64,000 nt of DNA. Origin: an uncultured Phycisphaerales bacterium (GTDB taxonomy: Bacteria; Planctomycetota; Phycisphaerae; Phycisphaerales; UBA1924). Positions within the stretch are counted from its first letter, which is position 1. Every line of letters begins with the position of its first letter. Positions 24,251-62,825 of this stretch are shown one piece after another. The notes beneath the pieces were generated by a model. It did not search any database. It was given only the letters and a program-made list of their open reading frames with translations, and was not told where the DNA came from. Made by a program: the position numbers and the translations under genes. Location of the stretch: positions 4,876 through 68,875 of the forward strand of contig CALKJW010000014.1 in assembly GCA_937995595.1 (NCBI GenBank), read 5' to 3'.

Positions 24251-24254
24251 GTGG

Positions 24255-40101: not shown

Positions 40102-40134
40102 CGTGTGTTCCGGCCGGGTGGTGGGGGTCGCGGT

Positions 40135-40175
40135 GGAGGAAGAAAGAGAGCGGCCCGCGTTTCCGAAGGCCGCTC
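40135..40175 (-). terminator. candidate intercistronic attenuator/terminator between pstS and pstC
   Basis: On the minus strand: GAGCGGCC (40175..40168), 12-nt loop, GGCCGCTC (40155..40148), followed by TCTTTCTTCCTCC. Confidence 0.45.
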
Positions 40176-40204
40176 CGGGATGTTGTCAGCGTATCAGTAC
40201 CGGA

Positions 40205-41342: not shown

Positions 41343-41876
41343 CTACCGGATCTGGCCGATGGTCACACGGATCGGCCCGCGCGAACGGATCGGTTCGCCC
41401 TCGGCGGGCTCAAACCGGCAGTGCAACTGCACGTCCTGCGTGGGGAGACGGTCGGTGCCGTGCTCGAGGATCGAGAACCGGAAGCGGTACCCCGGGCCGG
41501 GCAGCAGCCGCTCGACCGCGCGGGCCGAGGCGTCGCGGTCGAACGTCCAGACGCCCATGCGCTCGCCTGAGAGATTCTCGATCTCGAACCGGAACGCGCC
41601 CGGCACGGTCACCGGGACATCGCGCGGCGGCGCGAAGAGGAACGCGGTGACGACGATCTCGTCGGCAAAGCCGTTCTTGTCGCTGTCGTTGGCGTAGCGG
41701 GCCGCGGCGACCTCCAGCACCGTCGGCACCACCCCGGCGGGTTGCGCCGGGACCGGCCGCGGGGGCGGTTTGCCCTGCGGGCCGTCGGCCACGCAGCCGG
41801 CGACGAACACCGCGGCGCCGAGCAACGCCGCGCGGGAGAGGCTCGCAAGGCGGTGCGAGGGGGCGAACGGTCGCAT
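41343..41876 (-). CDS. lipoprotein of unknown function, translationally coupled to the secretin gene
   Basis: MRPFAPSHRLASLSRAALLGAAVFVAGC (lipobox VAGC), Pro-rich linker, then a beta-rich domain. Its ATG (41876..41874) shares one nucleotide with the secretin TGA (TGATG). Only the last 534 nt of ORF 41343..42689 are taken as coding. Confidence 0.7.
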   Translation of the reverse strand: MRPFAPSHRLASLSRAALLGAAVFVAGCVADGPQGKPPPRPVPAQPAGVVPTVLEVAAARYANDSDKNGFADEIVVTAFLFAPPRDVPVTVPGAFRFEIENLSGERMGVWTFDRDASARAVERLLPGPGYRFRFSILEHGTDRLPTQDVQLHCRFEPAEGEPIRSRGPIRVTIGQIR

Positions 41877-44800
41877 CAGGGCTCCGATCTCGGGCCGCGC
41901 CCGGTGCCGGTGGGCGGCATGGGCTCGGGCTCGGGCTGTTCGTCCAGGGGCCGCATGTAGTTGAGGATCCGCGCTGGCTGGCGCAGGCGGCCGACCTCGC
42001 GTTCGCTCAGGACGCGCATGCTCGACACTTCGTCCTCGCCGCCGCCGCGGATCACGCGCGGCGTGAGCAGCACGAGCAGTTCGGTGCGGGCCTGTGTGCG
42101 CTTGGTGGATCGGAACGCCTCGCCGACGAAGGGGATGTCGCCCAGCAGGGGGACCTTGGTGCGGCGTTCCTCCTCGGTGGTCTGGAGCAGGCCGCCGATG
42201 ACGACGGTCTCGCCGTCGCGGACGCGGACGTTGGTCTCGATCTCTCGCTTGGTGATGATCGGGGCCTGGAAGTCCTCGGTGACCTGCGTGGTGCGGGCCG
42301 AGAGGCTGGAGATGACGGGCACGATGTCCATGCGGACGAACCCGTCGGAACTGATCGTGGGCGTGACGTTGAGGATGATGCCCACGTCCTCGCGTTTCAC
42401 GTTGGCGAGCGTGTTGCCGTTGTCGCGGCGCTCGACGGACTCGACGATGCCGACGTTCTCGCCGACCTGGATGCGAGCCGCCTCGTTGTTGTTGACGAGG
42501 ATCTGCGGGCGGCTGAGGACTTCGAGCCGGCCCTGGGCCTCCAGCGCGCGGATGAGCAGCTCGAAGTCCGAACTCGACACCGAGAGGTTCGGCACGCCCA
42601 GCGCGGTGACGACGCTCGCGCCCGCGGCGAGCGTCCGCACGCCGTACATCTCGCCCCCGAAGGGACCCACGGAGATGTCCATGCCCCACGACTGCTCGGC
42701 GTCGATCGTCACCTCGGCCAGCAGGACCTGGATCATCACCTGCGGGGGCGTGGAATCGAGTTCGCGCACGAGGCGCTCGACGGTCTCGCGGTAGTGCGGC
42801 GACACGCCGACCACCAGCCGGTTGCTCGGGGTGTCGCCCTGCACCGTCACCTCGCGCTCCAGCATGCGGGCCAGCGAGCCGGCGCGGTCGGCCCCCAGCA
42901 CGCTGCGGATGGTGCTGGCCTGCTCGGTGAAGTACTGCCGGAGCGTCGCGGCGACCTCGGCCGCCTTGGCGTTGCGGAGCTCGAAGACCAGTTGGTCGCG
43001 CTCGTTGGCCTCGATGCTGTCCAGTTCGCTGACGACCTCCTCGACTCGGCGCAGGTACTCGGGCGTGCCGGAGACCAGCAGCGAGTTGGTCCGCGCGTCG
43101 ATGGTGATGGCCAGTTGCTGGCGCTCGTCGAGCGACGGGTACAGTGCGTCCTCGCCCAGCGCGGGCGGGACGCCCGCGGCGTCGTCGGCGCGACCGGGCA
43201 CGAGCACGAGGGTCGCGCCGTTCTGGCGCAGGTTGAACAGTTCGCGCAGGACCTCGGCCATCGCACGGGCGTCGGCGTTGGTCAGTCGGAAGACCTTGAT
43301 CTCGCGCGCACCGGCGACGGTCGAGTCGAGATCGCCCACCAGCGCCTCGATCAGCACCATCAGGCGCGCCGGGGCGACGGCGACGATCGAGTTGGTGCGC
43401 AGTTCGGCCGTGAGCGTCACCTGCTCCTGGATCGCGCCGCTGATCTCGGCCTCGGTGGGCTCGCGGTGGGCGCCCGCGGCGAGTTCGGCGGCCGTCTGCC
43501 CGCGCACGAAGCGGAGCAGTTGGGCCTTCCGCGCGCCGACGACGCCCGGCCCGGCGATCGGCCGCCCGGCCAGCACGTTCTGCAGCAGGCGCACGACCTC
43601 GGCGGCGTCGGCCTTGGTCAGTTCGATGCGCTTGATCTCGGCCACCGCGGCGACGCCGGTGCCGTCGAGCCGCTCGACGAGCGTGCGCACCGCCTGGATG
43701 TCAGCCGGCGTGCCGCGGACGATCAGCGCGTTGAGGCGGAGGTCGAGCGAGACGCGCACCGCGTCGGGGCCGCGGTCGCGGACCTGCCGGTCGACGTACA
43801 GCGTCTGCACGGCCTGCAGGACCTCCTCGACCCGCGCGGATCGGACGGGCACCACGTCGACCGATTCGAGCCCGGCCACGGCCTCGCCGCCGCGCGTGAG
43901 TTCCTCGACCAGCCCGCGGATGATCTCGACGTTCTCGCTGCTGGCGGCGACGATGAGCGAACGGCTGGCGGTGTCGGGCTGGATGGAGAGGGTGTCGCTG
44001 GGCCCGGCGATGCCGCCGGCGCGGCGCGCGGCCTCCATGCGGTCGCGCATCAGCCGTTCGATGCGCGGGGCCAGTTGGGTCACGTCGCCGCTGGGCACGG
44101 GGATGACCGTCAGGCCGACGGTCGGCCCGCCGGCGTCGGCGTCGAGCTGCGCGATCAACCGTTCGACGATCGCGAACGAGCGGGCGCTGGTCGAGATGAC
44201 CAGCGCGTTGGTGCGCACGTCGGAGGAGATCACCAGATCGTCCTGCGGGAGCAGCGCGCCGCTCTGCACCTGCCCGCGGAAGACGTCGCGCAGGATCGCC
44301 GCGACGCGGTCCACCGCGGCGACCTTGAGCGCGAAGATGCGCACGGTGTTCTCCGCCGCGGCGGCGGGGACGTCGAGGAGTTTGACGATCTCGGCGACGG
44401 CCTGGGCGTTGGCGCGGCTGCCGACGACAATGACCGCGCGGAGGGTCGGCTCGGGAAGGATCACCAGCGTTGAGATCGGCGCGAAGCGGTCGGCCTGGAT
44501 CATGCCCTGCACGTCGGCGGGGTCGCCGCCCTCGGCGAGGATGCGGTAGCGCGCGACCTGTCGCTGCAGCGCCTCGGCCTCGGGCGAGGGCGGCACGTTC
44601 TCGAGCAGCACCTGGCGCACCGTCGAGGCGAGCCGGACGGGGTCGGCGTGCTCGACCCGGATGACGCGGGGCTCGATCCAACTGGTGGTGCGCTCGCTGT
44701 CGAGTTGCTTGACCAGCACCTCGACCAGCGCGACGGCCTCCTCGCGTCCCGCGACGATCATGGCGTTGGTGCGCTCGTCGACGCTGACGGCGACCTGCCC

Positions 44801-47800
44801 GGTCAGGGCCTTGCCCGTCTCGCTGGTGGGCTGCGAGCGGATGGTCGTGCCGGGGTTGGTGCGCAGGCGGTCGCCCTGGTCGAAGATGCCGCGGATCACC
44901 CCCGCCAGTCGCGTGGCCGAGGCGTTCTGGAGCGGGAAGATGCGGACCAGCACGGCCTCGCCGACGGGCAGGGCGTCGAGCATCTCGACAACCTGCGAGA
45001 GCGCGAGCACGTTGCCCTCGGTCGAGGCGATGACGACGGCGTTGGTCTGCGGCTCGGCCGAGACGCTGATCGGGCGCGACAGGTCGACCTGCAGGTTGGC
45101 CTTGTCGGCCTCGCTGCGGTGGATGGTGAGCCGGCGGACCTGCTCGGCCAGCGCGGCGGCGAGCTCGACCTGCGAGTCCTGCGTGCGCGGCCTGAGCATG
45201 GCCTCGACCGCCGCGGCGACGTTGGCCGCGGGCGCGGTCTTGAGGCGGATGAAGGCGACGTGCTGGTCGGCGAAGGCGGGCTGGCGGTCGAGCGAGCGGA
45301 CCAGCGACTGCACCGCCGCGCCGTCCTGCGGGCCGGCGATGACGGCGATGGCGCGCCGGCTGGTGAGCGGGACGATGGTGACCGGCTCGGCGACGATGCC
45401 GGGGCGGTCGGCCGGCTGCGGCCGCGTCAGGCCCATCTGCTCGAGCGTAGCGCGCATCTGCTCGGGCGTGTGGTGCTCCAGGTCGATCAGGAGCATGCCC
45501 TGGTTCAGGCCGGGGACGGTCCCGTCGGCGGGCGCGCCGCCGCGCGGCGCGGCCAGCGCGTCGAGTTCGACGACCAGCGCGCGGATCTGCTCGTAGAGGC
45601 GCTCGCTGCTGGCGACGACGAGGTTGTTGCCCGTGCGGTCGATCTCGACGGTGAGCGACTCGTTGGCCTGCTGCGCGACGGGCTGGAAGGTCGTGCGGAC
45701 GGTCTGCAGGACGCGCGCGACGGGGAAGTTGGTCACGCGGATGACCCGCACGCTGACCTGCGAGCGGTCGCCCTCCTGCTGGAGCGAGTCGGCCATGACC
45801 TTGATCTGCGCGAACTGCGCGTCGTCGGCGCGGACGACGATGACGTTGCTCCGGTCGTCGCCGACGATGAGGACCGATCGCGCCGTGATCGTGTTTGCGC
45901 GGCCGCGACCGGCCTCGGCGGTGTCGACGAACAACTGCCGCAGCGTCGCGGCGACCTGTGTCGCGGGCCCCCGCTTGAGCGCGATGATCCGCGGCTCGGG
46001 GAGTTGCGAGTAGGCGGGCACGTCGAGTTGCTGCGCGACGGCGCGGATGCGTTCGGTCTGGTCGCGCGGGCCGGCGATGACCAGCGAGTTGGTCAGCGGC
46101 TCGGCGGTGACGCTCACGACCTCCTTGCTCGACAGCACGACGGTGGGGAACTCGGGGAACTGGTCGTCGGCGCGGCGCGGCTGCTGGGGCTGGCGGCGGG
46201 CGCGCTCGCGCTCGATCTCGGCGCGGAGCGGCGCGCTGAACGCCTCGGACAGCGCGCGGGAGAGGCTCTCGGCGTCGGCGTGCTTGAGCGCGACGATCTC
46301 CAGCCGGCGCGAGGTGTCGTACTCCTCGGAGTCGAGTTTCTCGAGCAGCGCGCGGATGCCGGGCCACTCGGCCTCGCCCGCGGCGATCACGAGGCTCTTG
46401 CTGGCGGGGTTGGCCAGGATGCTCACCGCGCGGGCGCCGGGCGTCTGCGCCTCGCGCGCGAACTGGCCGTAGAAGACCTCCAGCGCGCGGGCCGTCGCCT
46501 CGGGGTCGGCGAACCGGAGCGGGATGAACTCGGTGGCGCGCTTGCCGGCGCGGGCGACGTCGAGTTCCTTCACGACCGCGAGGATCTCCTCCATCTGGTC
46601 GGGCGTGGCCGAGACCAGCAGCGTGGTGCCGGGCGAGAGCGTGCTGATCGCCGGGGCGGGTTCGTTGGGCCCCAGTTGGCGTCGCGACAGCAGCGAGCGC
46701 AGCGTCGAGGCGATGTCGTACCCGTCCTGGTGCGCAAGGTCGATCCGGCGGAACTCGGTCTGCGGCCTGGGCGGCGTCGCGTCGAGTTCGGCGATCTGCG
46801 ACATCACCAGCCGCACCGCCTCGTCGGAGCCGGTCAGCAGCAGCGTGTTGGTCCGGCGGACGGGCGTGACCTTGACCTTCACGCTCCGCGGCAGCGCGGC
46901 GGTGAGCGACTGGGCCACGTCCTCGGCGCGTGACTGGCCGAGTTGCACCGTCACGATGCGCGACATCTCGGCCTCGGGCGGCGCGTCGAGGCTGTTGACC
47001 AGCGCGTCGACCTTCTCGAACAACTCGCGCGGCGCGGAGACGATCACCGAGTTGGTCCCCGGCTGGGGCGTGACGATCACCAGCCCCTCGCGCGAGGCGA
47101 GCGTGCGCGGGAACTGCTCGCGCAGGATGCTGGCCAGTTCGCCCGCCTCGGCGTTGCGCAGGCGGTAGAGTTCGCGGACGCGCCCCTCGGTCTCCTCGGG
47201 CTGGTCCATCTGCGTGACGAACGCTCGGACCTGCGCCATGTCCTCGCGCGAGGCGGCGACGATCAGCACGTTGCCCTCGGTCGAGCCGATCACGCTGACG
47301 ACGCTGCGTTCCAGCCCCGCGCCGCGGTCGCGCCCCTCGAAGAAGCGCGACAGATTGGCCGCGATGCGCTCGGCGCCGGCGTAGGTCAGGCGGATGGTCT
47401 CGACCTCGCGGTCGGCGATGCCCGAGGCCGAGTCGAGGTCCCTGGCGTAGCGCTCGGCCTGCGCGACGCGGTCCTCGCGGCCGATCATGAGCAGCACGCC
47501 GGCGCGCCGGTCGACCTCGACGCGCACGCCGTCGGGGTCGTTGCCGCGCCACCACGGCCAGCCGGGCGTGCTCATGGCCGACTGGATGGCCGGGCCGACC
47601 GACTGCGGGCTGGCGTTGACGAGTTTGACGGCGCGGACGACGAGCCGCGCGCCCTCGGGCTGGGGCGTGTCCAGCGCCTGGATGATCTTCTCGATGGTGT
47701 CGAACGCCTCGCCCTGGCCGAAGAGCACGACGCTGTTGGCGCGGTCGTTGAACTGCGCGCTGAGCGTGTCCTCCTGCGCGGCGCGGCGGTTGCCGGACCA

Positions 47801-50800
47801 CCAGTTGGACGGGTACTTCACCTCCTCCACCACGCCCTCGACGGTCTGGCGGATCTCGGCGACCCGCGCGTGCCGCAGCGCGATGACGCGGAACTGCATG
47901 TCCTGGCGCGCCGACGGCGCGTCGAAGGTCGCGACCAGCGACTGCACCTGCGCGAAGTCCTCCTCGCTCGCGGCGACGACCAGCGAGCCGCTGCGGCGGT
48001 CGCCGATCACCGCCACCTGGCGCTGGCGCGCCGGCTGGTTGGGCCGGCTCGACGCCCTCGCGCGGTCGTCGTAGAACCGCTGCAGCGCGGCCGCGACGGC
48101 CTCGGCGTCGGCCCGCTCGAGTTTCAGGCTGCGCACGGGCAGGCCGGCGACGTCGGACGAATCGATCTGCGCGACGATGCGCCGGGCCTCGTCGATCATC
48201 TCGCGCGGGGCGCGGACGACCAGCACGCTGGTCTCGTCGGCCGCGGTGAGCCTGAGCCGCTCGCGCCGCGCGGGGTCGTTGCCGACGATCGCCGCTTCGA
48301 CGATGCGCTGCGCGGTGCTGGGGCGCGTCGAGCGCAGCGCGATGATGTCGGTCTCCGAACCGTCGGCCTCGGCGGGCAGGTCGATCTGCGCCAGCAGGCG
48401 CTCGGACTCGCGGTGGTGGCTCTCGGTGCCGGTCACGAGCACGGCGTTGGTGCGGGCGTCGACGATCAGCGAGGGGCGCGGCGACTCGGGCGCGGCCTGT
48501 CGCGCGGCCTCGAACGCCTGCTGCAGCATCGGCACGGCCTGCTCGGCCCGCGCGTTGCTCAGTGCGAACCGGCGCAGCGCGAACTGGTCCTGCATCGGCG
48601 CCTGGTCGAGCAGCGAGATGAAGCGGTCCAGCAGCGGGATCGCGTCGGCGGGCGCGGCGATGATGAGCGAGCGGCCCGCGGGGTCGGCGGTGGCCCGCAC
48701 CGTGGCCGGGTCGATGCGCAGCGCGCGGCCGTCGGGCCCCGCGCCGCCGTCGAAGGCCAGTTGCAGCACGCGCTGGGCCTGCCGCCCGCGCGGCACGGGG
48801 CTGAACAGGTCGAACACCGCGCGCACCACGCGCGGCGCGCTCGTGTTCGTCAGCGGGTACACCTTGATCGTGAGCGTCGAGCCGGGCAGCGGCTTGCTGA
48901 CCGCGCCGATCAGTTCGCCCAGCACGGCGAAGTCCGTGTCGTTGGCCGAGACGATGACCGCGCCGCCCTGCGGGTCGGCCTGCACCGAGACGCGCGCCGT
49001 GAACCCGCCGGGGTTCTGCGCCGTGGCCTGGCCGATCTGCGCGGCCGTCTGGTTCACGATGCTCGCGATCACGTTGGCGTCGACGCCCTCGGGCAGCGTC
49101 ACGATTCGCAGACGCAGCGGCTCGGCGGGCATCTGACGCTGGAGTTCGGCCGCGAGCGCGGCGGCGCGGTCCACCGCGCGGCTGCTGCCGGAGATGATCA
49201 GCGAGTTGGTCGCGGGGTCGACCGCGATGGTCACGCCGTCTTCGGGCTGCGCGGCCTGTTCGTCCAGCGCGCCGATGACCGCCGCCGCGAGCCACGCCGC
49301 CACGGCGTGCGCCCCCGACGCGGCGGGAGCGTCGGGGCCGGGGCGCAGCGGCGCGGCGTTGCTGCCCTGCTTCTTGTCGTCTCGCGCCGGGGCGAGCAGT
49401 TCCTCGACGCTGATCACCTCGACCTTGGTCGCGGCGCGCTGTTCGAGCAGCCGGCGCAGCGCCTCGGCCAGCATCTGCGCATCGGCCTTGGAGCGGTCGA
49501 CGTTGATGAGGCGCATGTCGCGGCTGGCCGCGCTGGTGGCCTTGTCCAGACCTTTCACGAGGTCCTCGATCGAGGCGATCTGCCGCTCGGTGCCGCGGAC
49601 GACCAGCGAGTTGCTGGCGCGGTCGACGCGCACGACGGGGGCCGGCTCGGCCGCGATGCCCGCGCCGTCGTCCTGGAAGACCGCCTGCACGCTCTGCGCG
49701 GCGTCGTCGGCCGCGGCGTTCTGCAGCGTGAGCACGCGGACGACGCGCGCGGCGCCCTGCGGCGTCTGGGCCATGTCGATGTCGAGGTCGGCGATCACCT
49801 GTTTGGCGACCTCGACCGACTCGCGCGGTCCGCTGACGACGACGACGTTGAGCCGACGGTCCGCCGCGACCTTCACCGGCACGAGCGTGCGGGCCTGCTC
49901 GGCCGCGGCGACGGGGACGCGCGTGCCGGGGCGGAACTGCTGGAACTGGGGCGCCGGGTCGCGGTGCAGGAGCTGCTGCACGATCGGGGCGATGGCCTCG
50001 GCGCGGGCGTGCTTCATCTGCACGGTGGCGACGGAGACGGCGCCGGGCTTGTTGCCCTCCAGGTCGAGCGAGCGGGCGATGTCCTCGACCATCTGGACGT
50101 CGGCCGCGCTGCCGCTGATGACCAGCGCGTTGGAGCCCTCGGCCGACGAGACGCTGACGCGACCGCCCGCGGGCCCGAAGCCGCCGAGCGGCGCGAGCGA
50201 CTGGTTGATCGCCTGCGCGGTGGGGCCGGACTCGACGAACTTGAGTTCGAGCACCCTGACGACGGGCTTGGCGGCCAGGCGCGACAGTTCGTCCACGATC
50301 CGCGCGTAGCGCGCGACGGCCTCGGCGTCGCCGCTGACGAGCAGCGCGCCGCGCTCCCTGTCCTCCTGCACGTCGACGCGCGCCGCGCCCGGGACCATCG
50401 CCACCTGCTCGCGCTCGATCTCCGCGGCGCGGGTGCGCACCGCGGCGAGAGAATCGGACGGCACGAGCAGCACGCGGAAGACCGCGTCGCGCGCCGTCGC
50501 GCCGTCGATCGACGCCGCGAGCGACTCGATCGCGGCAAGGTCCTCGGGCCGCGCGCGGACGATGAGCGAGCGCGTCTCGTCGACGGCGTCGAACCGCGGC
50601 TCGACGTACGCCGAGCCGTCGCCCGGCTCCAGCAGCGTGCGGGCCAGCTGCGCCATGCGTCCGACGATCTGGCTCGGGCGCGCGTGCCTGAGCGTCAGCG
50701 TGCGCGTCTCGCGCTCGACCACGATGCCCGACTCGACCGAACGCAGCAGGTCGGTGAACGCGGCGATCGCGACCGAACTGCCGACGAGCGTGACGGTGCG

Positions 50801-52390: not shown

Positions 52391-52536
52391 GTCTCCGTCC
52401 CTCCTTGAACACCCCCACCCCCTACCCCCCCGCCCCTTCGACCCTCCCCCGACCCACCGGCCACGCACGCGATTGCCGGTGGAGACGGCGTGTGCGCCGG
52501 CCAGTCTCCGCTCGCCGCGCGACGCCAGTGTACCGA

Positions 52537-53526: not shown

Positions 53527-55244
53527 CCGCCGCCTCCCCCGCCGCGGGTCGGGCGCGGCCGCTGGTTGCGCGGCTGGTCGGTCCGCGGCGTGTTGGCGGG
53601 CGCGGCGGCGGGCTGCTGCGCGGGCTGCGCTTCGGTTCGCGGCGCGGGCGTCGCGCTCTCGGGCTGTCGCGGCGCGGGCTCGGGGTCGTTCCGCGCGGCC
53701 GCGGGCGGCGTGGCGATGTCCGACGCGCGCGGGCCGGGTGCGTCGTCGGGAGTCCGGAAGCGCGTGGTGAGCGTCCACTCGAAGCGGTCGGGCAGGTCCG
53801 AGCCGCGGGTCTGCACGCTGTAGCGCTGGTCGGCGACGAGCCGGGCGCGGAGGGCGTCGGCCACCTCGCGGCGCTTCATCGAGCCGGCGATGGACATCGA
53901 CCCGTCGTGCCGCACCGCCCACGCCGCGGGCGTGTAGACGCTCTGATCGCGCGTCGGCGCGTACACGACCTCGACGTCGCTCTTGGCGGTGACGCTGTCG
54001 AGCACGGCCTCGCGCGGGTCGGGCATCTGCGCGCAGAGCATGTTCAGGTGCGCCAGCCAGTCGATCTCGTTGTCGCGGAAACGCCGGAGGTGCTCGAGCC
54101 GCGCCTGCATGCGGACGAACTCGGCGTACTGCTCGGACTGCAGGCCCCACTCCTCCTTCAGGCCGGCCAGGGTCCGCTCGCGGCGCTGCAGGTCGAGGCG
54201 CGCGGCGGTGAACGCGCTGCCGCCGACGACGATCGCCGCGAGCGCGCCCAGCAGCACCAGCCGCCGGCGCTGCCCGGCAAGGTCCGGCGCGCGGCGCGGC
54301 GAGGCGAAGTCCAGCGTGGCCCTGCCGATCGCCGGCTCGGCGAGCAGGCCGATGAGCGGCGCGACGGCCGAGCGGTCGGCCTCGGGCATGTCGGCGGCGA
54401 TCTCGACGTAGCGCGGGAACCCGGCGGCGTCGCTCGGCAGGTCGAGCGTCTCGGTGCACCGCTGGGCGACAAGGCGGCTGAGCGGGTCGGAGCCGAGCAC
54501 GGTCACGGCCTCGATCGACGGCGCGTCGGGCGCGGCGCGGTACGACATCCACGTGCGCTTGGCCTCGACGGCGACCTTCTGCGCAAAGGCGTCGGCCTCG
54601 TCGGTGCTCGCGGGCCGCACCAGATCGGTGGCCCGGGCGAAGACCAGTTGCCCGCCCTCGACGATGACGAACTCGGTCGATTCCGCGCCCAGCGCGACGC
54701 CGAGCGTACCGCCGCTGCGGCCCTGCGCCACCTCGGCGAGCAGCGCGGCCGCGCCGGCCGACTGCAGCGCGACGCGCCCGAGCCGCAGCCCCGCCGCGCG
54801 GCAGACGGCCCGACGCCACTCCAGCCGGTCGCCCTGGAGCGCCGCGGCCAGCACCGCCGCGCCGCTCTCGCCGTCGTCGATCGGCACGTAGTCGATCGCG
54901 GCGTTCTCGGGCGAGACCGTCAACTGGCGGACCAGTTGCAGGCGCACCATGCCGGGCAGTTCGTCCGGATCGGTGCCGGGCGGGAAGGCGATGCGCTTCA
55001 TCACGACTTCGCCGCGCGACACCGCGAACACGACGCGGGCCCGGCGCGCCGCGCTCCAGAGTTTGGCGCTCTTGAGTTCGGACGAGACCCAGCGGCCCGC
55101 CGCGGCGGCGTCGTTGAAATCGAGCGCCGGCGGCCGCGGCACGCTGAGCCATGCGCGGACGGTGACGCGCCCGGACTGCACGCCCGCGGCGACCGCCACG
55201 AGGCGGTTGCTCTCCAAGTTGATGGCGACCTGGTTCCGCTCCAT
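53523..55244 (-). CDS. GspL-like protein (PilM-type actin-like ATPase-fold domain + TM + PilN-like periplasmic domain)
   Basis: N-terminal ~330 aa match the PilM/GspL-cyto pattern (VAINLESNRLVAV..., LGVALGAESTEFVIVEGGQLVFAR). TM helix LVLLGALAAIVVGGSAFTAA, a coiled region, and a Pro/Ala/Gln-rich tail ending GGGGGG. ATG 55244 is preceded by GAGGG; alternative TTG at 55292. Confidence 0.7.
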   Translation of the reverse strand: MERNQVAINLESNRLVAVAAGVQSGRVTVRAWLSVPRPPALDFNDAAAAGRWVSSELKSAKLWSAARRARVVFAVSRGEVVMKRIAFPPGTDPDELPGMVRLQLVRQLTVSPENAAIDYVPIDDGESGAAVLAAALQGDRLEWRRAVCRAAGLRLGRVALQSAGAAALLAEVAQGRSGGTLGVALGAESTEFVIVEGGQLVFARATDLVRPASTDEADAFAQKVAVEAKRTWMSYRAAPDAPSIEAVTVLGSDPLSRLVAQRCTETLDLPSDAAGFPRYVEIAADMPEADRSAVAPLIGLLAEPAIGRATLDFASPRRAPDLAGQRRRLVLLGALAAIVVGGSAFTAARLDLQRRERTLAGLKEEWGLQSEQYAEFVRMQARLEHLRRFRDNEIDWLAHLNMLCAQMPDPREAVLDSVTAKSDVEVVYAPTRDQSVYTPAAWAVRHDGSMSIAGSMKRREVADALRARLVADQRYSVQTRGSDLPDRFEWTLTTRFRTPDDAPGPRASDIATPPAAARNDPEPAPRQPESATPAPRTEAQPAQQPAAAPANTPRTDQPRNQRPRPTRGGGGGG

Positions 55245-55267
55245 CGAAACCCTCGTGCAAGCCTCGC

Positions 55268-56737
55268 TCACCCTCGCCCGCCGGCGGTCCAACGGCCCAC
55301 CCTCGGGTCCGAGTCCGACGCGGGCGCGTCGCCGGCATCGGCCGGAGCGGCCGGGCGCGGGCTCTCCGTGCCGCGCGTCGGCCGCCTCGGAGACGAGGAT
55401 ACCGCCGAACCGGGGTCAGCGGATGCAGGGGGCGGCGCAAGTTCGAAGTTGGCCGGGGGCTGGTCGGGGCCGGGACGGGGCCCGGCCAAGCCCAACGCGC
55501 CGACCCGCCGGGCCGCTTCGGCAGCGCTGATGTCGCGCAGGTACGCGACGCGCGGCCGCTCGGACGCGACGTCAACGACCGCCTCCAGCACGACGCGGTC
55601 CTGCAGCGGCGGGCGGTCGTCGCCCTCGTCGGTGTCGGCGGGGACAAACCCCGCCTCGACGACGATGCGCCACTGCATCGAGCGCGCGCACACGTGCTCG
55701 AAGGCCTGCTCGAACCTGTCCGGGGTCAGGATGTTCTCGGTGACCAGCCAGCACACGCTCAACCGTTGCTCGGGCGCGAGTTTGTCGCGCAGCGCGACGG
55801 CCTGTTCCGCCGCGGCCGCGTCGAACCCCGGCACGCACGCCAGCACCGCGGCGGGCGCGGCGAGCACGTCAACCCGTCCGACGCGGAAGGGCGCGGGGTC
55901 GGCGCAGAACACGTCGACGACCTCGGCCCAGTCGGCAGGCGGGCTGTTGTAGCGCCGCAGCACGCGGACGAGGTCGGAATCGCGCTCGAAGCGCGAGCCC
56001 TGCTCCATGACCGCCTTGACGATGTTCGCGGTCGCCTCGTCGTAGCGCTCGCGGATGGCCTCGCCCAGCGCGTCGGACCACTGGCCGCGAAGCGAGATGC
56101 GCCGCGCACCCGAGTGCGACTCGGCCCCGCGCCCCATGCCCGCCTGCACGTTGGGATCGAACGCGAAGACCGTCAGCAGGTCCTCGAGCGGGCGGGGCGG
56201 CGCGACATCGACCGGCGGGACGAACGCGTCCGTGCTCGCGGGTGGCTCGGCGTCGTCGCGCGGGCCGAAGGCGTTGCGCAGCCCCTCGATCAACGCCAGG
56301 TCGCGCACGCTGCCGAACTTGCCCGCGCCGCGCGCCGCGACGATCCGCGCAGCGACCTCGGCGTCGAGCCCCGGCACCAGCGCGAGCATCTCGGCGGTCG
56401 CGGCGTTGATGTCGATCTTGCCGGACTCGCTGACCGCGGCCCGCCCGTCGATCGGGACGAGGCGCGCCACGGCGCGCCGGCCGTCGCCGTCGACAAACAG
56501 CGGCCACTCGTCGCTCAGGACCGGCCGCCTGCCCAGAAGCAGGTCGGCGCGCTGGGCGCGGAGTTCCTCCTGCGCCGCCTGCACGCCGCTCCACGCCAGC
56601 GCGCGGCTCTGCACGCGCCGCGCCGCCGCGTCGGCCGCCACACGCTGCGCCTGCGCCGAGTACACCACGCTCGCGGCGACGAGCGCGCCGATGGTGACGG
56701 TGATCAGCACGGCGTAGAGGGCGAATGCGCGGCTCAC
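55268..56737 (-). CDS. gspK: GspK-like minor pseudopilin
   Basis: The GTG start overlaps the upstream TGA (GTGA at 56734-56737). N-terminal hydrophobic segment SRAFALYAVLITVTIGALVAASVVY. Two helix-hairpin-helix-like segments (KIDINAATAEMLALVPGLDAEVAARIVAAR... and VDVLAAPAAVLACVPGFDAAAAEQAVALR), as in GspK. Pro-rich C-tail. Confidence 0.7.
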   Translation of the reverse strand: MSRAFALYAVLITVTIGALVAASVVYSAQAQRVAADAAARRVQSRALAWSGVQAAQEELRAQRADLLLGRRPVLSDEWPLFVDGDGRRAVARLVPIDGRAAVSESGKIDINAATAEMLALVPGLDAEVAARIVAARGAGKFGSVRDLALIEGLRNAFGPRDDAEPPASTDAFVPPVDVAPPRPLEDLLTVFAFDPNVQAGMGRGAESHSGARRISLRGQWSDALGEAIRERYDEATANIVKAVMEQGSRFERDSDLVRVLRRYNSPPADWAEVVDVFCADPAPFRVGRVDVLAAPAAVLACVPGFDAAAAEQAVALRDKLAPEQRLSVCWLVTENILTPDRFEQAFEHVCARSMQWRIVVEAGFVPADTDEGDDRPPLQDRVVLEAVVDVASERPRVAYLRDISAAEAARRVGALGLAGPRPGPDQPPANFELAPPPASADPGSAVSSSPRRPTRGTESPRPAAPADAGDAPASDSDPRVGRWTAGGRG

Positions 56738-57372
56738 GGCGCACCCCCCTGCGGCGCATCGGCCCGTGTGCGCAGCGACCACGCCGCCTCCGGCGCATCG
56801 GGAATGACCAGCACGCGCACCCGGTCGGGCTCGGGCCAGCGTTCGGGCGCCCCCGCCCGCTCCCCGACGGGCTCGAACCAGAGCGCGACCTCGACGGCGG
56901 CGGGCAGGCGGCCCGCGGCCGCGCTGTCGAAGGACGCGGACCACGACCGCCCGTCGAAGTACCGGAACCGGGCGCGCATGGCGCGCTCGGAGAGGGCGTG
57001 CCGCTCGCCCGGCGCGCCCGCCGGCCCTCGCGCCAGCCACAGCATCGGCCCGATGAACTCGTACACCGCCTCGTGCAGGTCGCTCGCGCCCGCGTCGGAC
57101 AGATCGACGCCGCGCGTCAGCACGCGCAGGCGCGTCGAACTCCCCTGCACGCCGGCGCCGCGGCGGGCGTCGCCCGCGATCGCGCCCAGCAGGTCGGACT
57201 CCAGTCGGTCCAGCAGCGCGTCGGCGCCCTGCGCGTCGCTCGCGGCCAGTCCCAGCGCCCGCTGCGAGGACGCCGTGCGCCACGCGAAGGCCGTCACCGC
57301 CGCGGCGAGCATCGCGCCAAGGCCCAGCGCCAGCAGCACCTCCATCACGGTGAACCCGCGTCGAACGCTCAT
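56734..57372 (-). CDS. minor pseudopilin, GspJ-like by position
   Basis: MSVRRGFTVMEVLLALGLGAMLAAAV (G|FTVME prepilin motif). Its ATG overlaps the upstream TGA (ATGA at 57369-57372). Confidence 0.65.
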   Translation of the reverse strand: MSVRRGFTVMEVLLALGLGAMLAAAVTAFAWRTASSQRALGLAASDAQGADALLDRLESDLLGAIAGDARRGAGVQGSSTRLRVLTRGVDLSDAGASDLHEAVYEFIGPMLWLARGPAGAPGERHALSERAMRARFRYFDGRSWSASFDSAAAGRLPAAVEVALWFEPVGERAGAPERWPEPDRVRVLVIPDAPEAAWSLRTRADAPQGGAP

Positions 57373-57938
57373 CGTACGCCCCCTCTGGCGCCGCTCCGGG
57401 CACGCTCGGCGGCGCGGCCGATGTCGTCCAGATCGCCCACGCGGTCCTCGGCCTCGGCCCCGAGCCGGACGAGTTGGCGCAGCGTGACCGCGACCGACGG
57501 CGCGGCCCGGCCCGGCTCGCGCCGCAGCGCGGTCACCTCGATCAGCGTCAGGCCGCCGCCGGGGCCCGCCGCGCCCCGGCCCGCCCCGCCGTAGGGCGTC
57601 GAGCGGATCGACAGTTCCCATCCCGTCGGCGCCGGCGGCGTCTCGGCGAACTCGGAGGTCGATTCCTCGTCCTGCCACTCGGGAACGGGGCCGTTGAGTG
57701 TCTCGGCGGTGTCGATGCCGGCCTCGATGCGCGACAGCGCGCTGCGTGCAAGGTCCATGGCTCGCTGCCGCTCCTTCGCCGCCGCCAGCGACGAGGCCGA
57801 CTGCCCGATGGCCGAGAGAATCGCCAGCGCCGCGCCGAGAAAGACCGCCAGCGCGAGCATCATCTCCATGAGCAGCGCGCCGCGCGGCCTGCGCCGGCCG
57901 CGCACGCACGAGCGCGAGGCCGCGGCCCGGGCGGTCAT
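57369..57938 (-). CDS. minor pseudopilin, GspI-like by position (degenerate prepilin motif)
   Basis: ...RRRPRGALLMEMMLALAVFLGAALAILSAI (G|ALLME with Glu at +5). Its ATG overlaps the upstream TGA (ATGA at 57935-57938). Confidence 0.55.
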   Translation of the reverse strand: MTARAAASRSCVRGRRRPRGALLMEMMLALAVFLGAALAILSAIGQSASSLAAAKERQRAMDLARSALSRIEAGIDTAETLNGPVPEWQDEESTSEFAETPPAPTGWELSIRSTPYGGAGRGAAGPGGGLTLIEVTALRREPGRAAPSVAVTLRQLVRLGAEAEDRVGDLDDIGRAAERARSGARGGVR

Positions 57939-58576
57939 GGCGTAGCCCCCTGTCCGCCGGCGGCACGCGGCGGAGGTGGCTCGCCCTCGGCACGCACGTA
58001 CGGCGTGAACGACGCCTCGCCCGTCCAGCGGTTCAACCGGACCCGCGCCTCGCGCCGGTCGCCCGCGTCGAACACCATCAACAGGTCACGCGGCATCAGC
58101 ACGCTGCCGTCGGGCAGCAGCACGCACAGCGTCCCGCCGCCCGTTCCCTCGACGAACTCCGGCTCGTTGTCGTCGCGCTCGGCGTCGCGATCGTTGCGCT
58201 CGGCGTCCGCGGCTTGGTCGTCCTCGGCGGGCATGAGAGCGAACCGCACGCCGCGGGGCAGGTCGAGCACGAACTCGCTGCGCGCCGGGCGTGAGCGTTC
58301 GCCGCGGCGCTGTTCACCGGAGCCGACGGTCTCCGCCTCCTCGCTCCACAGCGTCGCGCCGCGCTCGTCCTGCCGGACGGTCAGCCGAACGATCACGCCG
58401 CGGCGTTGCGCATCGGCCCGGGCGATGATCACGGCGGACGCCAGTTGCCGCTGGGCCTGATCGAAACGGTCGGCCGCGAGGCGAGAGACCCCGACGGGCA
58501 GCACGATTCCCGCGACCATCGCGACCAGCGCGACGGCGATGAGCAGTTCCAAGAGCGTGAAGGCCGAGCGGCACAT
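57935..58576 (-). CDS. minor pseudopilin, GspH-like by position
   Basis: MCRSAFTLLELLIAVALVAMVAGIVLP (A|FTLLE). ATG 58576 is preceded by GGAG at an 8-nt spacing. An acidic insert (AEDDQAADAERNDRDAERDDNEPE) is present. Confidence 0.65.
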   Translation of the reverse strand: MCRSAFTLLELLIAVALVAMVAGIVLPVGVSRLAADRFDQAQRQLASAVIIARADAQRRGVIVRLTVRQDERGATLWSEEAETVGSGEQRRGERSRPARSEFVLDLPRGVRFALMPAEDDQAADAERNDRDAERDDNEPEFVEGTGGGTLCVLLPDGSVLMPRDLLMVFDAGDRREARVRLNRWTGEASFTPYVRAEGEPPPPRAAGGQGATP

Positions 58577-58638
58577 ACAAACGCTCCGAGTGCGCCGGAC
58601 GACCCGGCGAGACGGCGGCCCGGCGCGGCGAAGGCGAC

Positions 58639-59163
58639 TCAGGGCCGGGCGGGCGGCGGCGGCGCCGAACTGCCGCCGGACGACCGGCTCCCATCGATCC
58701 CCTCGAGCGCGGACTTGGGCCAGACGTTGATGTCGTCTTCGGTCCCTTCCTGCTTGTCCGGACCGGCCGAGAGCAGGTCGAACTTGCCCTCGGGCGCGCG
58801 CTCGCCGACCTGCAGGTAGATCCACTCGGTTCCCCACGCGTCGGTCGGGATCGGCTCTTCGACAAAGCGCCGCCACTTGGCCTGGTCCGCGTCCTCGGAC
58901 AGTCTGGACTTGTCCCACAGCACCGCGAGCCCCTCGTCGTCGGTCGGGTAGCGGTTGAACTCGAGGCTGAACTGGTTGAGCGCGTCGCGCAGGCTCTTGA
59001 GTTGGATCTGCACGTTGCCCTCGGTCGCGCGGTCGCGAGAGCCCATCAGGTTCACCGTGACCAGCCCCGCGATGGCGAGGATGATGACGATCACGATCAT
59101 CACTTCCAGCAGCGTGAACGCGCGGGACACCGCCGCGCGCACGGTCGATTCGGTCCTGTTCAT
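58639..59163 (-). CDS. gspG: type II secretion major pseudopilin GspG
   Basis: ...VSRAFTLLEVMIVIVIILAIAGLV..., NRYPTDDEGLAVLW, PTDAWGTEWIY, GKFDLLSAGPDKQEGTEDDI (GspG calcium-loop region). ATG 59163 is preceded by GAGGAGG. Confidence 0.92.
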   Translation of the reverse strand: MNRTESTVRAAVSRAFTLLEVMIVIVIILAIAGLVTVNLMGSRDRATEGNVQIQLKSLRDALNQFSLEFNRYPTDDEGLAVLWDKSRLSEDADQAKWRRFVEEPIPTDAWGTEWIYLQVGERAPEGKFDLLSAGPDKQEGTEDDINVWPKSALEGIDGSRSSGGSSAPPPPARP

Positions 59164-59307
59164 CCGTTCAGCCTCCTCTGCCCTCCGCCCCGGCCGTCCG
59201 TGCCCGCCCGACCCGCCACCGCATGAGTTTACCGCCGCGACGCCCGCGCGGCTTCGCCCGCGCCTGTCAGGGATTCCCATTGTCACGAGCGGGTATCGCG
59301 CCGGCGT

Positions 59308-60507
59308 TCATCGGATCGCCGAGCCCATCTGCGAGATCGGCAGCACCAGGCCCATCGCGACCAGCCCGATCACGCCCGCCAGCAGGAGCAGGAGCAGGGG
59401 CTCGACGAGTTTGAGCGCCACGCCGAGCATGCGCTCGATCCGGCTCTCCAGCGTCTCGGCGACGGTGATCAGCACGCCGTCGAGGTTGTTGGCCTGTTCA
59501 CCGACGGTGATCATCTCGACCACGTCGGGCTGGATCAGCCCGCTCTCGGCCAGCGGCGGGGCGAGCGGCTGGCCCTGCCGCACCGCCTCGGCGGCGTTGC
59601 CGATGGCGTCCTCGAGCAGCACGCTGCCCGCGGCGTCGCGGGCGATCTGCATCGCGGTCAGCAGCGGGATGCCGTTGCCGAGCATGGTGCCGAGGATGCG
59701 GCAGAACCGGGCGACGGCCATCGCGCCCAGCAGCGGGCCGAGCACGGGCAGGCGCAGTTTCACGGTTTCGATCCGGCGCGAGACATCGGGCCGCCGGGCC
59801 AACCGCCACAGCACGAACACCGTCGCCGCGCACACGGGCACCAGCACCACGCCCCAGGTGGAGACAAAGTCGCCCAGTCCGAGCACGATCTTCGTCACGC
59901 GCGGCAGGCCCGCCTGCTGGTCGATCTTCGCGAAGATGGGCTTGAACCTAGGCACGAAGACCCCGAAGACGATCCCGAGGATCGCCCCGCCGACGACCAC
60001 CAGCACGATCGGGTAGATGAGCGCGCCGACGACCCGCGCCCGCATGTCGGCCTGGCTCTGCAGGAACGCCCCCAGCCGCGCCAGCACCTGCTCGAGGAAC
60101 CCGCCCTTCTCGCCCGCGCGCACCATCGCGACGTGCACCTTGGGAAAGACCTCCGGCCGCGCGGCCATCGCCTCGGCCAGTTCGACGCCCTCGGCGACCG
60201 AGTCGGCGACCTCGCCGAAGGTCTGCGCCAGCCGGGCCGACGACTTCCGCGCCGCCAGCAGCCGAAGGCCGCGCATCAGCGGTACGCCGGCGCGGAGCAG
60301 GTCGGCCAGTTGGGTGTAACTCGCGGCCAGTTCGCGCGTCGAGACGCCCATCCGGAGCCCGCCGCGTTCGGCCTCCTCGTTGACGTTCACGGGCGTGAGC
60401 CGTCGCGCTTCGAGTTCGGCGAGCACGGCCTGCTCGCTCGCGCCGGCGAGCACGCCGACCACGCGCTCGCCGCCGGGCGTCAAGGCGATGTAGCGGTAGT
60501 TGCCCAT
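59308..60507 (-). CDS. gspF: type II secretion system F family platform protein
   Basis: 399 aa with the duplicated GspF/PilC architecture: ...ELAASYTQLADLLRAGVPLMRGL..., three TM segments, ...RFCRILGTMLGNGIPLLTAMQIA... Confidence 0.93.
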   Translation of the reverse strand: MGNYRYIALTPGGERVVGVLAGASEQAVLAELEARRLTPVNVNEEAERGGLRMGVSTRELAASYTQLADLLRAGVPLMRGLRLLAARKSSARLAQTFGEVADSVAEGVELAEAMAARPEVFPKVHVAMVRAGEKGGFLEQVLARLGAFLQSQADMRARVVGALIYPIVLVVVGGAILGIVFGVFVPRFKPIFAKIDQQAGLPRVTKIVLGLGDFVSTWGVVLVPVCAATVFVLWRLARRPDVSRRIETVKLRLPVLGPLLGAMAVARFCRILGTMLGNGIPLLTAMQIARDAAGSVLLEDAIGNAAEAVRQGQPLAPPLAESGLIQPDVVEMITVGEQANNLDGVLITVAETLESRIERMLGVALKLVEPLLLLLLAGVIGLVAMGLVLPISQMGSAIR

Positions 60508-60541
60508 GCGGAGTCGGCCGCCGCCGCGCCGGGGCGCGGGG

Positions 60542-61291: not shown

Positions 61292-61405
61292 GATCGCCTC
61301 CTTGGCGGGCCGGTCTTGCGGCCCGCGGAGCAATCGTACCGCGCACGCACGCGAAAGGTCGCGGGCGAATCCGCAACGCGCTGCATCCTCGAACTACCAT
61401 CGGTC

Positions 61406-62221: not shown

Positions 62222-62230
62222 TCGAGCCGG

Positions 62231-62788: not shown

Positions 62789-62825
62789 ACTCGGCTCCTT
62801 GCACGGCGCGAGCGGTCGCGCCGCG

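What the first reader, a model, noticed from the sequence alone, without database searches (positions are those of the whole stretch)
41343..60507. Complete T2SS-like operon with unusual order, tight coupling, and no ATPase or prepilin peptidase in the window
The minus-strand order is gspF, gspG, three minor pseudopilins, gspK, a GspL-like gene, a GspM/C-like gene, the secretin, and a lipoprotein.

Five junctions are start/stop overlaps:
- ATGA at 57935-57938
- ATGA at 57369-57372
- GTGA at 56734-56737
- ATGA at 53523-53526
- TGATG at 41874-41878

The secretin sits at the 3' end rather than near the 5' end as in classical gspC-O clusters. No GspE/PilB-type P-loop ATPase and no GspO/PilD peptidase is encoded anywhere in the 64 kb. 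The only P-loop proteins I saw are PstB, RecA and the STAND kinase. The gene directly upstream of gspF, 34 nt away and on the same strand, is a glutathione peroxidase.
Basis: seen in the sequence. Interest (0 to 1): 0.65.

Follow-up and report, generated by a model that had tools for sequence, protein, structure and literature searches.

The report
Type II secretion operon, giant secretin

Summary
The minus-strand order is gpx, gspF, gspG, H-, I- and J-like pseudopilins, gspK, a GspL-like gene, a GspM/GspC-like gene, the secretin and a lipoprotein. All five start/stop overlaps are present. No GspE-type ATPase or prepilin peptidase is encoded in any frame of the 64 kb.

- **Order:** F to M, then C, then D is the known Xanthomonas Xps order. 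It is conserved across Phycisphaerales genomes, including the gpx-gspF linkage.
- **ATPase:** In the closest genome (94% GspF identity), gspE lies 11.5 kb upstream of gspF on the opposite strand, beyond the same genes that end this window. The metagenome that holds the window carries matching gspE contigs at the same depth.
- **Peptidase:** A prepilin peptidase encoded outside the cluster is normal for type II systems.

The real novelty is the secretin (41876-52390). It has an N0 domain, 37 abutting and highly diverged Secretin_N domains, and one C-terminal secretin domain. It is intact, confirmed by an independent assembly, and under purifying selection. It belongs to a large family: 112 of the top 148 clusters are 3,000 to 5,532 residues long, with up to 58 N-domains. 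I found no literature describing this family. If the domains stack as rings, the periplasmic conduit would be roughly 100-180 nm long. That length is inferred, not shown.

The parts
60542..61291 (-). Glutathione peroxidase with a Cys-rich, hydrophobic N-terminus, 34 nt upstream of gspF. It is conserved at this position in most relatives.
   Evidence: Pfam GSHPx, E 1e-40. Synteny in L001-L006, L008-L010 and L014. A metatranscriptome contig, X29 60311-60619, spans the gpx/gspF gap.
59308..60507 (-). gspF, the inner-membrane platform protein (399 aa).
   Evidence: Pfam T2SSF, E 6e-49. NCBIfam GspF 314 bits, the best-scoring model. dN/dS 0.06 against L001.
58639..59163 (-). gspG, the major pseudopilin (174 aa). 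Class III signal sequence ...SRA/FTLLEV.
   Evidence: Pfam T2SSG, E 1e-21. NCBIfam typeII_sec_gspG 109 bits, above the 88.85 cut-off.
57935..58576 (-). GspH-like minor pseudopilin (213 aa).
   Evidence: N_methyl plus a weak GspH match. Weak matches to Verru_Chthon cassette protein D and to GspH.
57369..57938 (-). GspI-like minor pseudopilin (189 aa from the ATG at 57938).
   Evidence: No Pfam match. Weak NCBIfam matches to ComGE and gspI. G/ALLME motif read in the sequence. Conserved in relatives.
56734..57372 (-). GspJ-like minor pseudopilin (212 aa).
   Evidence: Weak T2SSJ match plus N_methyl.
55268..56737 (-). GspK-like minor pseudopilin (489 aa). It lacks Glu5, as GspK proteins do.
   Evidence: HHH_3 plus a weak T2SSK match. 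Weak NCBIfam T2SS_GspK match. N-terminus RAFALYAV read.
53523..55244 (-). GspL-like protein (573 aa): a PilM-type actin-like cytoplasmic domain fused to a hydrophobic segment and a C-terminal region presumed periplasmic. This is the architecture of a PilM-PilN fusion.
   Evidence: Pfam PilM_2. An ortholog profile against the PDB hits PilM 2ych at E 7.5e-16, plus 3jc8 PilM and 5eox.
52537..53526 (-). GspM/PilO-like domain, Pro-rich linker and GspC-HR/PilP-like beta domain in one protein (329 aa). It is the predicted connector to the secretin N0 domain.
   Evidence: NCBIfam GspM_XpsM, E 4e-5, residues 10-108. AF2 model with pLDDT 75. Foldseek hits: PilO 3jc8_Oa; PilP 3jc8_Pa and 2y4y (TMt 0.65); GspC HR 3oss_C (TMt 0.71, rmsd 2.6 A). 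Whole-model E-values are only 0.016 or weaker.
41876..52390 (-). Giant secretin (3,504 aa): signal peptide, N0 domain (about residues 68-150), 37 abutting Secretin_N domains (165-3218), secretin domain (3282-3448) and a short tail.
   Evidence: Pfam Secretin_N, 31 stretches, E 8e-293; Secretin, E 4e-50. My own iterated HMM finds 37 domains. The N-terminus hits GspD N0-N1-N2 structures (5wln, E 2.4e-10). An independent Logan contig covers 41343-52347 with 3 differences and no gaps. dN/dS 0.10 over the first 1,000 codons.
41343..41876 (-). Conserved lipoprotein (177 aa, lipobox VAG/C). Its start overlaps the secretin stop. It is a pilotin candidate of unknown fold.
   Evidence: Orthologs lie directly after the secretin in L082, L083 and L087, with the G-C of the lipobox invariant. 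No Pfam or NCBIfam match. The AF2 single-sequence model is unusable, pLDDT 45.

Best explanation
The region is the structural operon of a Phycisphaerae-type type II secretion system. It has the Xps-like gene order F, G, H, I, J, K, L-like, M/C fusion, D, followed by a small lipoprotein.

**How it most likely works.** GspF, the PilM-type GspL-like protein and the GspM/GspC-HR fusion form the inner-membrane platform. GspG, capped by the H/I/J/K-like minor pseudopilins, forms the pseudopilus. The secretin forms the outer-membrane pore.

**The missing parts.** The motor ATPase GspE is encoded separately. By synteny with the closest genome it lies about 8 kb beyond the right end of the window, divergently oriented. 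The prepilin peptidase is encoded elsewhere, as in many type II systems.

**What sets the system apart.** The secretin has one N0 domain and 37 tandem N-domains in place of the usual 3. The most likely reading is that these domains stack as rings into a periplasmic conduit roughly 100-180 nm long. The N0 end would be held by the HR-like domain of the M/C fusion, and the pseudopilus would work inside or at the base of the conduit.

**Shown:** gene identities, domain count, intactness, conservation, purifying selection, and the gspE location in relatives.

**Inferred:** ring stacking and conduit length, the HR-N0 contact, the pilotin role of the lipoprotein, and the exact gspE position in this genome.
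For: - **Component identities:**
- **Conserved order:** 12 Phycisphaerales loci at 48-94% GspF identity keep the same order.
- **gspE in relatives:** It lies divergent and 2-3 kb upstream in L002, L003 and L010. In ACE_PLA19 it lies 11,534 bp upstream on the same contig.
- **gspE in this genome:** Window 62021-64000 is collinear with the start of that interval. Metagenome X1, which reproduces the window at depth about 60, also carries contigs at depth 55-70 that match that gspE at about 90% identity.
- **Secretin architecture:** 37 domains with no linkers, mean period 83 aa. The repeats share only 20% mean identity, at most 39%, so the array is old and not an assembly artefact.
- **Secretin orthologs:** About 3,760 codons with at least 38 domains in L081; about 3,600 aa in L082; 4,828 aa with 53 domains in L087. 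The flanking genes recovered at each locus match the window.
- **Family size:** 112 of the top 148 clusters at 50% identity are at least 3,000 aa, and the longest is 5,532 aa with 58 domains.
- **Selection:** dN/dS is 0.06-0.31 for every gene of the cluster.
- **Expression:** Short metatranscriptome contigs at 97-99% identity hit most genes of the cluster, from gpx to the secretin, and span two junctions.
- **Precedent:** The six N-rings of Thermus PilQ give a 350 A complex that spans a wide periplasm (PMC5745081).
Against: - No structure or image shows that 37 N-domains stack. A conduit of 100 nm or more would be 10-25% of a coccoid cell's diameter (cell size from general knowledge).
- A 2025 review states that internal membranes appear absent in Phycisphaerae (PMC12673574). 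The enlarged-periplasm rationale borrowed from Planctomycetia may therefore not apply.
- gspE was not seen physically linked to this window. Its position rests on synteny and on equal-depth contigs.
- No prepilin peptidase was located at all.
- Foldseek E-values for the M/C fusion are weak (0.016 or weaker), although the hit list is coherent.
- The RNA evidence comes from assembled contigs of community libraries. These can contain DNA and carry no strand information.
Confidence: 0.75

Rival explanations
1. The machine is a type IV pilus-like or competence-like fibre system specific to the PVC superphylum, not a protein-secreting T2SS. A long fibre would run through the long secretin conduit and emerge at the cell surface.
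For: - The L-like protein is closer in sequence to PilM than to GspL.
- There are weak NCBIfam or Foldseek matches to the Akkermansia Amuc_1098, Amuc_1100 and Amuc_1101 pilus-cluster proteins and to a Verru_Chthon cassette pseudopilin.
- The best-studied long secretin, Thermus PilQ, serves pili and DNA uptake.
Against: - GspG passes the T2SS major-pseudopilin equivalog cut-off.
- The secretin's C-terminal region scores 342 bits against GspD and 202 against PilQ.
- GspF scores better against the GspF model than against PilC models.
- The N-terminus matches GspD N0-N1-N2 best.
- The full H/I/J/K-like set is present, including a Glu5-less K.
- No PilT-type second ATPase is in the window or in the flanks of relatives.
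Confidence: 0.15
2. The system is a T2SS, but the 37 N-domains do not form a straight stack of rings. They might pack several per layer, fold back, form a flexible tether, or bind substrates or cell-wall layers. The channel would then be much shorter than 100 nm.
For: - Nothing in the data fixes the quaternary arrangement.
- Phycisphaerae are reported to lack the internal membrane systems seen in other planctomycetes.
- N-domain number varies widely between orthologous loci: 36 to 38 or more in the nearest relatives and 53 in L087. This might argue against a tightly tuned length.
Against: - In every solved secretin the Secretin_N domains form stacked rings (PMC5745081, plus general knowledge).
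- The domains abut without linkers.
- Each position is far better conserved between orthologs (about 90% with L001) than between repeats (20%), as expected if every ring has specific neighbours.
Confidence: 0.3
3. The cluster is a decaying or orphan T2SS remnant that has lost its ATPase and peptidase and is no longer functional.
For: No gspE or gspO is in the 64 kb window.
Against: - All genes are intact, with dN/dS 0.06-0.31.
- The order is conserved across the order Phycisphaerales.
- gspE is present nearby in relatives and in the source metagenome.
- Transcript-derived contigs cover the genes.
Confidence: 0.03
4. The 10.5 kb secretin ORF is an assembly or annotation artefact, either a mis-joined repeat array or a chance open frame in GC-rich DNA.
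For: High-GC DNA yields long spurious ORFs. Gene callers split or missed the gene in relatives.
Against: - GC3 is 0.96 and GC2 is 0.48.
- Pfam domains tile the whole length.
- The repeats are only 20% identical, so they cannot be collapsed or mis-joined.
- An independent contig matches with 3 differences.
- Collinear orthologs of 3,500-4,800 aa exist.
Confidence: 0.02

Closest known systems
Xanthomonas Xps type II secretion system (xpsE, xpsF, xpsGHIJKLMCD)
   Same: The gene order is the same from F through M, then the GspC-type connector, then the secretin last. The prepilin peptidase is outside the cluster. xpsE and xpsF are in operons separate from xpsG-D (PMC11981180). Weak NCBIfam matches to XpsF, XpsH and GspM_XpsM.
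   Different: - gspE is not adjacent here. It is divergent and 2-12 kb away in relatives.
- GspM and the GspC HR-like domain are fused in one protein.
- The L protein has a PilM-type cytoplasmic domain.
- A lipoprotein follows the secretin.
- The secretin has 37 N-domains rather than N0-N3.
Thermus thermophilus PilQ, the longest structurally characterised secretin
   Same: Extra Secretin_N-type rings lengthen the periplasmic part so that it spans a wide periplasm. It has six stacked rings N0-N5 and is 350 A long (PMC5745081).
   Different: - PilQ is 757 residues with 6 rings and serves a type IV pilus and DNA-uptake machine.
- This protein is 3,504 residues with 38 N-type domains in a T2SS-type operon.
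- Family members reach 5,532 residues and 58 domains.
Classical GspD secretins (V. cholerae EpsD, E. coli GspD, P. aeruginosa XcpQ)
   Same: The N0 domain, the KH-like N-domains and the C-terminal double-barrel secretin domain are shared. The best sequence matches in the PDB and in NCBIfam are GspD.
   Different: About 650 residues against 3,504, and three N1-N3 rings against 37. The C-terminal GspD score (342 bits) falls just below the equivalog cut-off of 351.
Legionella Lsp and Pseudomonas Xcp T2SS, with dispersed genes and a shared PilD
   Same: From general knowledge: T2SS genes can be split over several loci, and the peptidase PilD is shared with type IV pili and encoded elsewhere.
   Different: Those systems have ordinary secretins. 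I did not compare their gene order here.

Membership tests
Type II secretion system | Outer-membrane secretin of GspD type | tested here: met
   Secretin domain, E 4e-50. GspD is the best NCBIfam model at 342 bits, against a cut-off of 351 and 202 bits for PilQ. N0-N1-N2 matches GspD structures.
Type II secretion system | GspE/PulE-family assembly ATPase | tested here: inconclusive
   Absent from the window. In relatives it lies 2-12 kb upstream and divergent. Equal-depth gspE contigs are present in the source metagenome X1. Physical linkage to this window was not shown.
Type II secretion system | GspF platform protein | tested here: met
   T2SSF, E 6e-49. GspF is the best NCBIfam model.
Type II secretion system | Major pseudopilin GspG | tested here: met
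   NCBIfam equivalog typeII_sec_gspG scores 109.4 bits against a cut-off of 88.85.
Type II secretion system | Minor pseudopilins H, I, J and K | tested here: met
   Four genes, each with a hydrophobic prepilin-type N-terminus, lie in the canonical order. N_methyl reaches Pfam's threshold only for the H-like protein, and the family matches are weak. K lacks Glu5.
Type II secretion system | GspL/GspM assembly platform and a GspC HR domain that contacts secretin N0 | tested here: inconclusive
   The L-like protein has a PilM-type domain. The 329-aa protein has a GspM-like N-terminus and a PilP/GspC-HR-like C-terminal fold (TMt 0.65-0.71), but Foldseek E-values are 0.016 or weaker. No interaction data exist.
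Type II secretion system | Prepilin peptidase GspO/PilD | tested here: not met
   No Peptidase_A24 in the window or in the fetched flanks of relatives. The rest of the genome could not be searched. The peptidase lies outside the cluster in Xps as well.
Type II secretion system | Secretion of folded periplasmic proteins across the outer membrane | not testable with these tools
   This needs a secretome comparison of mutants.
Type IVa pilus machine | Retraction ATPase PilT and a PilA-type major pilin | tested here: not met
   No second T2SSE-family ATPase is in the window or the flanks. The major subunit matches GspG rather than PilA.
Secretin family, canonical architecture | One N0 domain plus a small number (1-6) of N-domains before the secretin domain | tested here: not met
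   37 Secretin_N domains follow N0. Six was called an unusual number for Thermus PilQ.

The most novel reading that the evidence does not exclude
Phycisphaerae, and perhaps other Planctomycetota, build secretin conduits an order of magnitude longer than any described. The number of N-domain rings runs from about 12 to 58 across lineages and would act as a molecular ruler for the distance between the inner-membrane platform and the outer membrane. This would imply either an unrecognised, very wide or locally specialised periplasm in these cells, or a type II mechanism in which the pseudopilus and substrate travel 100 nm or more inside a closed protein tube.
Probability: 0.4. Interest if true: 0.85.

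Novelty: new variant of a known kind. Interest (0 to 1): 0.62.

Why it matters
Current T2SS models assume a pseudopilus a few tens of nanometres long pushing substrates through a short vestibule. A secretin with 37 to 58 rings does not fit that picture. It raises concrete, testable questions about where substrates enter, how long the pseudopilus grows, and how the N0 end finds the platform.

It also bears on the debated envelope architecture of Planctomycetota. The length of an envelope-spanning machine reports the distance it must bridge.

The family is large: more than 100 clusters at 50% identity. It is annotated only as "type II secretion system protein D". Gene callers, and at least one protein index used here, fragment or miss it. 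Neither a 2025 review of the phylum nor a 2024 genomic survey of the class mentions secretins or secretion systems.

Tried and rejected
- **Whole-secretin homology search:** It timed out.
- **C-terminal homology search:** It returned only proteins of 1,568 aa or less, mostly fragments cut at contig ends. That index was therefore useless for judging full length. The representative library gave the answer.
- **Exact look-up of the window's GspF:** Not on record.
- **Promoter and terminator scan of 41-61 kb:** No promoter-like sites, and terminator-like sites at chance level (7 against 5.7 expected). It gave no help in defining the transcription unit.
- **Run X7:** It is labelled RNA-Seq but holds the cluster as one 26 kb contig of flat depth. 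That looks like DNA carry-over or a mislabelled library, so I did not use it as evidence of a polycistronic transcript.
- **Profile of the 329-aa protein against PDB sequences:** Nothing meaningful.
- **Lipoprotein structure:** The single-sequence model had pLDDT 45 and was not searched.
- **Literature searches:** Searches on giant secretins, on crateriform structures with secretin, on Planctomycetota with GspD, on Phycisphaera with secretin, and on Secretin_N found no description of multi-N-domain secretins.
- **Rejected ideas:** recent repeat expansion or assembly collapse, because the repeats are only 20% identical; and a defunct operon, because of dN/dS and conserved synteny.

Full report
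**1. What is there**

The window is about 71% G+C. A DUF1559/N-methyl protein at 442-1650 suggests Planctomycetota. The best genomic matches do too: Phycisphaeraceae bacterium ACE_PLA19 at 94% GspF identity, then other Phycisphaerales MAGs.

Pfam and NCBIfam identify a co-directional gene row on the minus strand between 61291 and 41343:
- gpx, gspF and gspG.
- Four genes with prepilin-type hydrophobic N-termini in the canonical H, I, J, K order. The K-like one lacks Glu5, as GspK proteins do.
- A 573-aa protein whose N-terminal half is a PilM-type actin-like domain. An ortholog profile hits PilM 2ych at E 7.5e-16.
- A 329-aa protein.
- The secretin.
- A 177-aa lipoprotein.

The other gaps are 34, 144, 62, 23 and 146 nt.

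**2. The 329-aa protein**

It had no Pfam hit. NCBIfam gives a weak GspM_XpsM match for residues 10-108.

I built an AlphaFold2 model from 15 homologues, with mean pLDDT 75. It shows a long N-terminal helix, a ferredoxin-like alpha/beta domain, a disordered Pro-rich linker and a C-terminal beta domain.

Foldseek against the PDB returns PilO, PilP, Amuc_1100, PilO cores, PilP (2y4y, TMt 0.65) and the GspC HR domain from the GspC-GspD complex (3oss_C, TMt 0.71, rmsd 2.6 A). The E-values are weak, 0.016 or weaker, because two small domains are searched as one model. The hit list is coherent all the same.

I read the protein as a GspM/PilO-like plus GspC-HR/PilP-like fusion. That makes it the expected connector to the secretin N0 domain. 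This reading is moderately supported.

**3. The missing ATPase and peptidase**

Pfam scans of every ORF with coding-type GC3 found no T2SSE or Peptidase_A24. A six-frame search for the GspE Walker A found nothing. No A24-type motif occurs either. The observation therefore stands.

The ATPase is not lost, though:
- In L002, L003 and L010 a GspE gene lies 2-3 kb upstream of gspF on the opposite strand.
- In ACE_PLA19 the GspE ortholog P0083 is on the same 510 kb contig as the cluster, at 371393-373057. gspF is at 384591-385787, so gspE lies 11,534 bp upstream and divergent.
- The genes in between are PTPS, Ysc84, CitMHS, an EF-hand protein, an SDR, an FGGY kinase, an AP_endonuc_2 protein, ThyX and a 200-aa ORF.
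- The window ends with the same PTPS, Ysc84 and CitMHS genes. Window 62021-64000 aligns collinearly with the start of that interval at 84% identity.
- By extrapolation, gspE lies at about 72.0-73.7 kb on the plus strand, roughly 8 kb past the window's end.

The source metagenome supports this. Run X1 reproduces the window at contig depth of about 60. It also holds contigs of depth 55-70 that lie in order along the ACE_PLA19 interval, including two on gspE at about 90% identity. That is supporting evidence, not proof of linkage.

The peptidase was not located. In the Xps system it is also outside the cluster (PMC11981180).

**4. Is the order unusual?**

No. The Xanthomonas cluster is xpsE, xpsF and xpsGHIJKLMCD, with the GspC-type protein and the secretin last.

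tblastn of the window's proteins against L001-L014 shows the order gspF-G-H-I-J-K-L-like-M/C-secretin in 12 Phycisphaerales loci. It holds down to 48% GspF identity, and gpx lies directly upstream in most of them.

More distant loci (L081, L082, L083, L087) continue with the small lipoprotein, and three of them then with pstSCAB and sucAB, as here. A Planctomycetaceae locus (L013) has the secretin and a GspE-type gene upstream of gspF instead.

The arrangement is a trait of the lineage, not an oddity of this genome.

**5. The secretin**

Starting from the GTG at 52390, which follows AAGGAGG, the product is 3,504 aa. Its N-terminus matches that of the ortholog P0212.

Pfam finds 31 Secretin_N stretches (E 8e-293) and a single C-terminal Secretin domain. 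An HMM iterated on the protein itself converges on 37 domains between residues 165 and 3218. They abut without linkers, with periods of 62-112 residues and a mean of 83. Residues of about 68-150 form an N0 domain. The first 366 residues after the signal region match GspD N0-N1-N2 structures best (5wln, E 2.4e-10).

The repeats share only 20% identity on average and 39% at most, with no neighbour effect. The array is therefore ancient. It cannot be an assembly collapse or a recent expansion.

The ORF has GC3 0.96. An independent Logan contig covers 41343-52347 with three differences and no gaps. dN/dS against ACE_PLA19 over the first 1,000 codons is 0.10.

**6. The secretin is one of many**

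- The ortholog in L081 is an open frame of 3,758 codons with at least 38 domains. A 100-N gap interrupted its gene call.
- In L082 the gene is called in two overlapping pieces totalling about 3,600 aa.
- In L087 it is 4,828 aa with 53 domains, in the same synteny.
- An exhaustive HMMER search of 1.84 billion cluster representatives, using the C-terminal 1,200 residues, returned 148 sequences that I analysed. Of these, 112 are at least 3,000 aa, 62 at least 4,000 and 6 at least 5,000, with a maximum of 5,532 aa. N-domain counts have a median of 38 and a maximum of 58. Most begin with signal peptides.
- Intermediate forms with 12-14 domains also exist.
- Where a source names these proteins, the name is only "type II secretion system protein D".

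**7. Literature**

I found nothing that describes such secretins.
- A 2025 review of the phylum never uses the words secretin or secretion system.
- A 2024 genomic survey of the class Phycisphaerae never uses secretin, secretion, pili or periplasm.

**8. Mechanism**

In solved secretins the N-domains form stacked rings (and general knowledge). Three features fit a stack in which every ring has its own neighbours: 37 abutting domains, conservation specific to each position, and a GspC-HR-like partner encoded next door.

Scaling from known ring heights of about 3-5 nm gives roughly 100-180 nm. That figure is an inference.

It sits awkwardly with the report that Phycisphaerae lack the internal membrane systems of other planctomycetes. 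It also raises the question of how a pseudopilus and its substrates would use so long a tube. A non-stacked or multi-layer arrangement remains a serious alternative.

**9. Expression**

Short contigs of 180-660 nt from four community metatranscriptomes match at 97-99% identity. They are scattered over gpx, gspF, gspG, the H-, I- and K-like genes, the L-like and M/C genes, and many parts of the secretin. One spans the L-like/M-C junction (53440-53730) and one spans the gpx/gspF gap (60311-60619).

This is weak support for transcription and for gpx-gspF co-transcription. Contigs carry no strand information, and the libraries may contain DNA.

**10. Verdict**

The feature worth following is the giant secretin family.

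Noticed in passing
window 34844-40185 (-): The two Pst permease genes downstream of the cluster are very long, about 960-988 and 783 aa (my recollection is that PstC and PstA are usually about 300 aa). Pfam BPD_transp_1 covers only the C-terminal part. The larger one has an insert of about 450 residues after its first TM-like segment. Relatives have the same sizes: 933-953 and 747-757 aa in L083 and L087.
   Followed up: partly
window 60542-61291 (-): The glutathione peroxidase has a Cys/Gly-rich N-terminus (MSCCHGGGCGDGGCGDGGG) followed by a hydrophobic segment. Its position directly upstream of gspF is conserved in most Phycisphaerales loci, and one RNA-derived contig spans the 34-nt gap. 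I have no functional link to secretion to offer.
   Followed up: partly
window 52391-52536: This is the 146-nt non-coding gap before the secretin start. A 98%-identical relative (run X7) differs here by six small insertions, while the flanking genes show only substitutions. It could hold an internal promoter or a regulatory element.
   Followed up: no
window 5950-9255 (+): A gene of about 1,100 aa encodes a Ser/Thr protein kinase fused to a STAND-type P-loop NTPase and TPR repeats.
   Followed up: no
window 20752-25121 (-): A gene row encodes an N-formylglutamate amidohydrolase-like protein, a GCS2 glutamate-cysteine ligase-like protein, a RimK-like ATP-grasp protein with a RLAN domain, and a C39-like peptidase. 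It may be a small peptide ligation or modification module.
   Followed up: no
window 442-1650 (+) and 2076-4397 (+): One protein combines a prepilin-type N-methylation motif with DUF1559, a pairing I recall as typical of planctomycetes. Next to it is a protein of about 770 aa with two lamin-tail domains. The first is a further likely substrate for the unlocated prepilin peptidase.
   Followed up: no
L081 1853-13129; L082 1930-12781: Public gene calls break or miss the giant secretin. Shadow ORFs on the opposite strand are called in L081, and two overlapping calls are made in L082. The word-indexed protein database returned no homologue longer than 1,568 aa. Giant secretins are therefore under-represented in routine annotation.
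   Followed up: yes
run X7 laid on window 42484-61300: A run labelled TRANSCRIPTOMIC RNA-Seq, from a wastewater metagenome, holds the cluster as a single 26 kb contig at flat depth 28 and 98.2% identity. It probably reflects DNA in the library. It also shows that a close relative lives in wastewater systems, whereas the run that matches the window is labelled a marine metagenome.
   Followed up: partly
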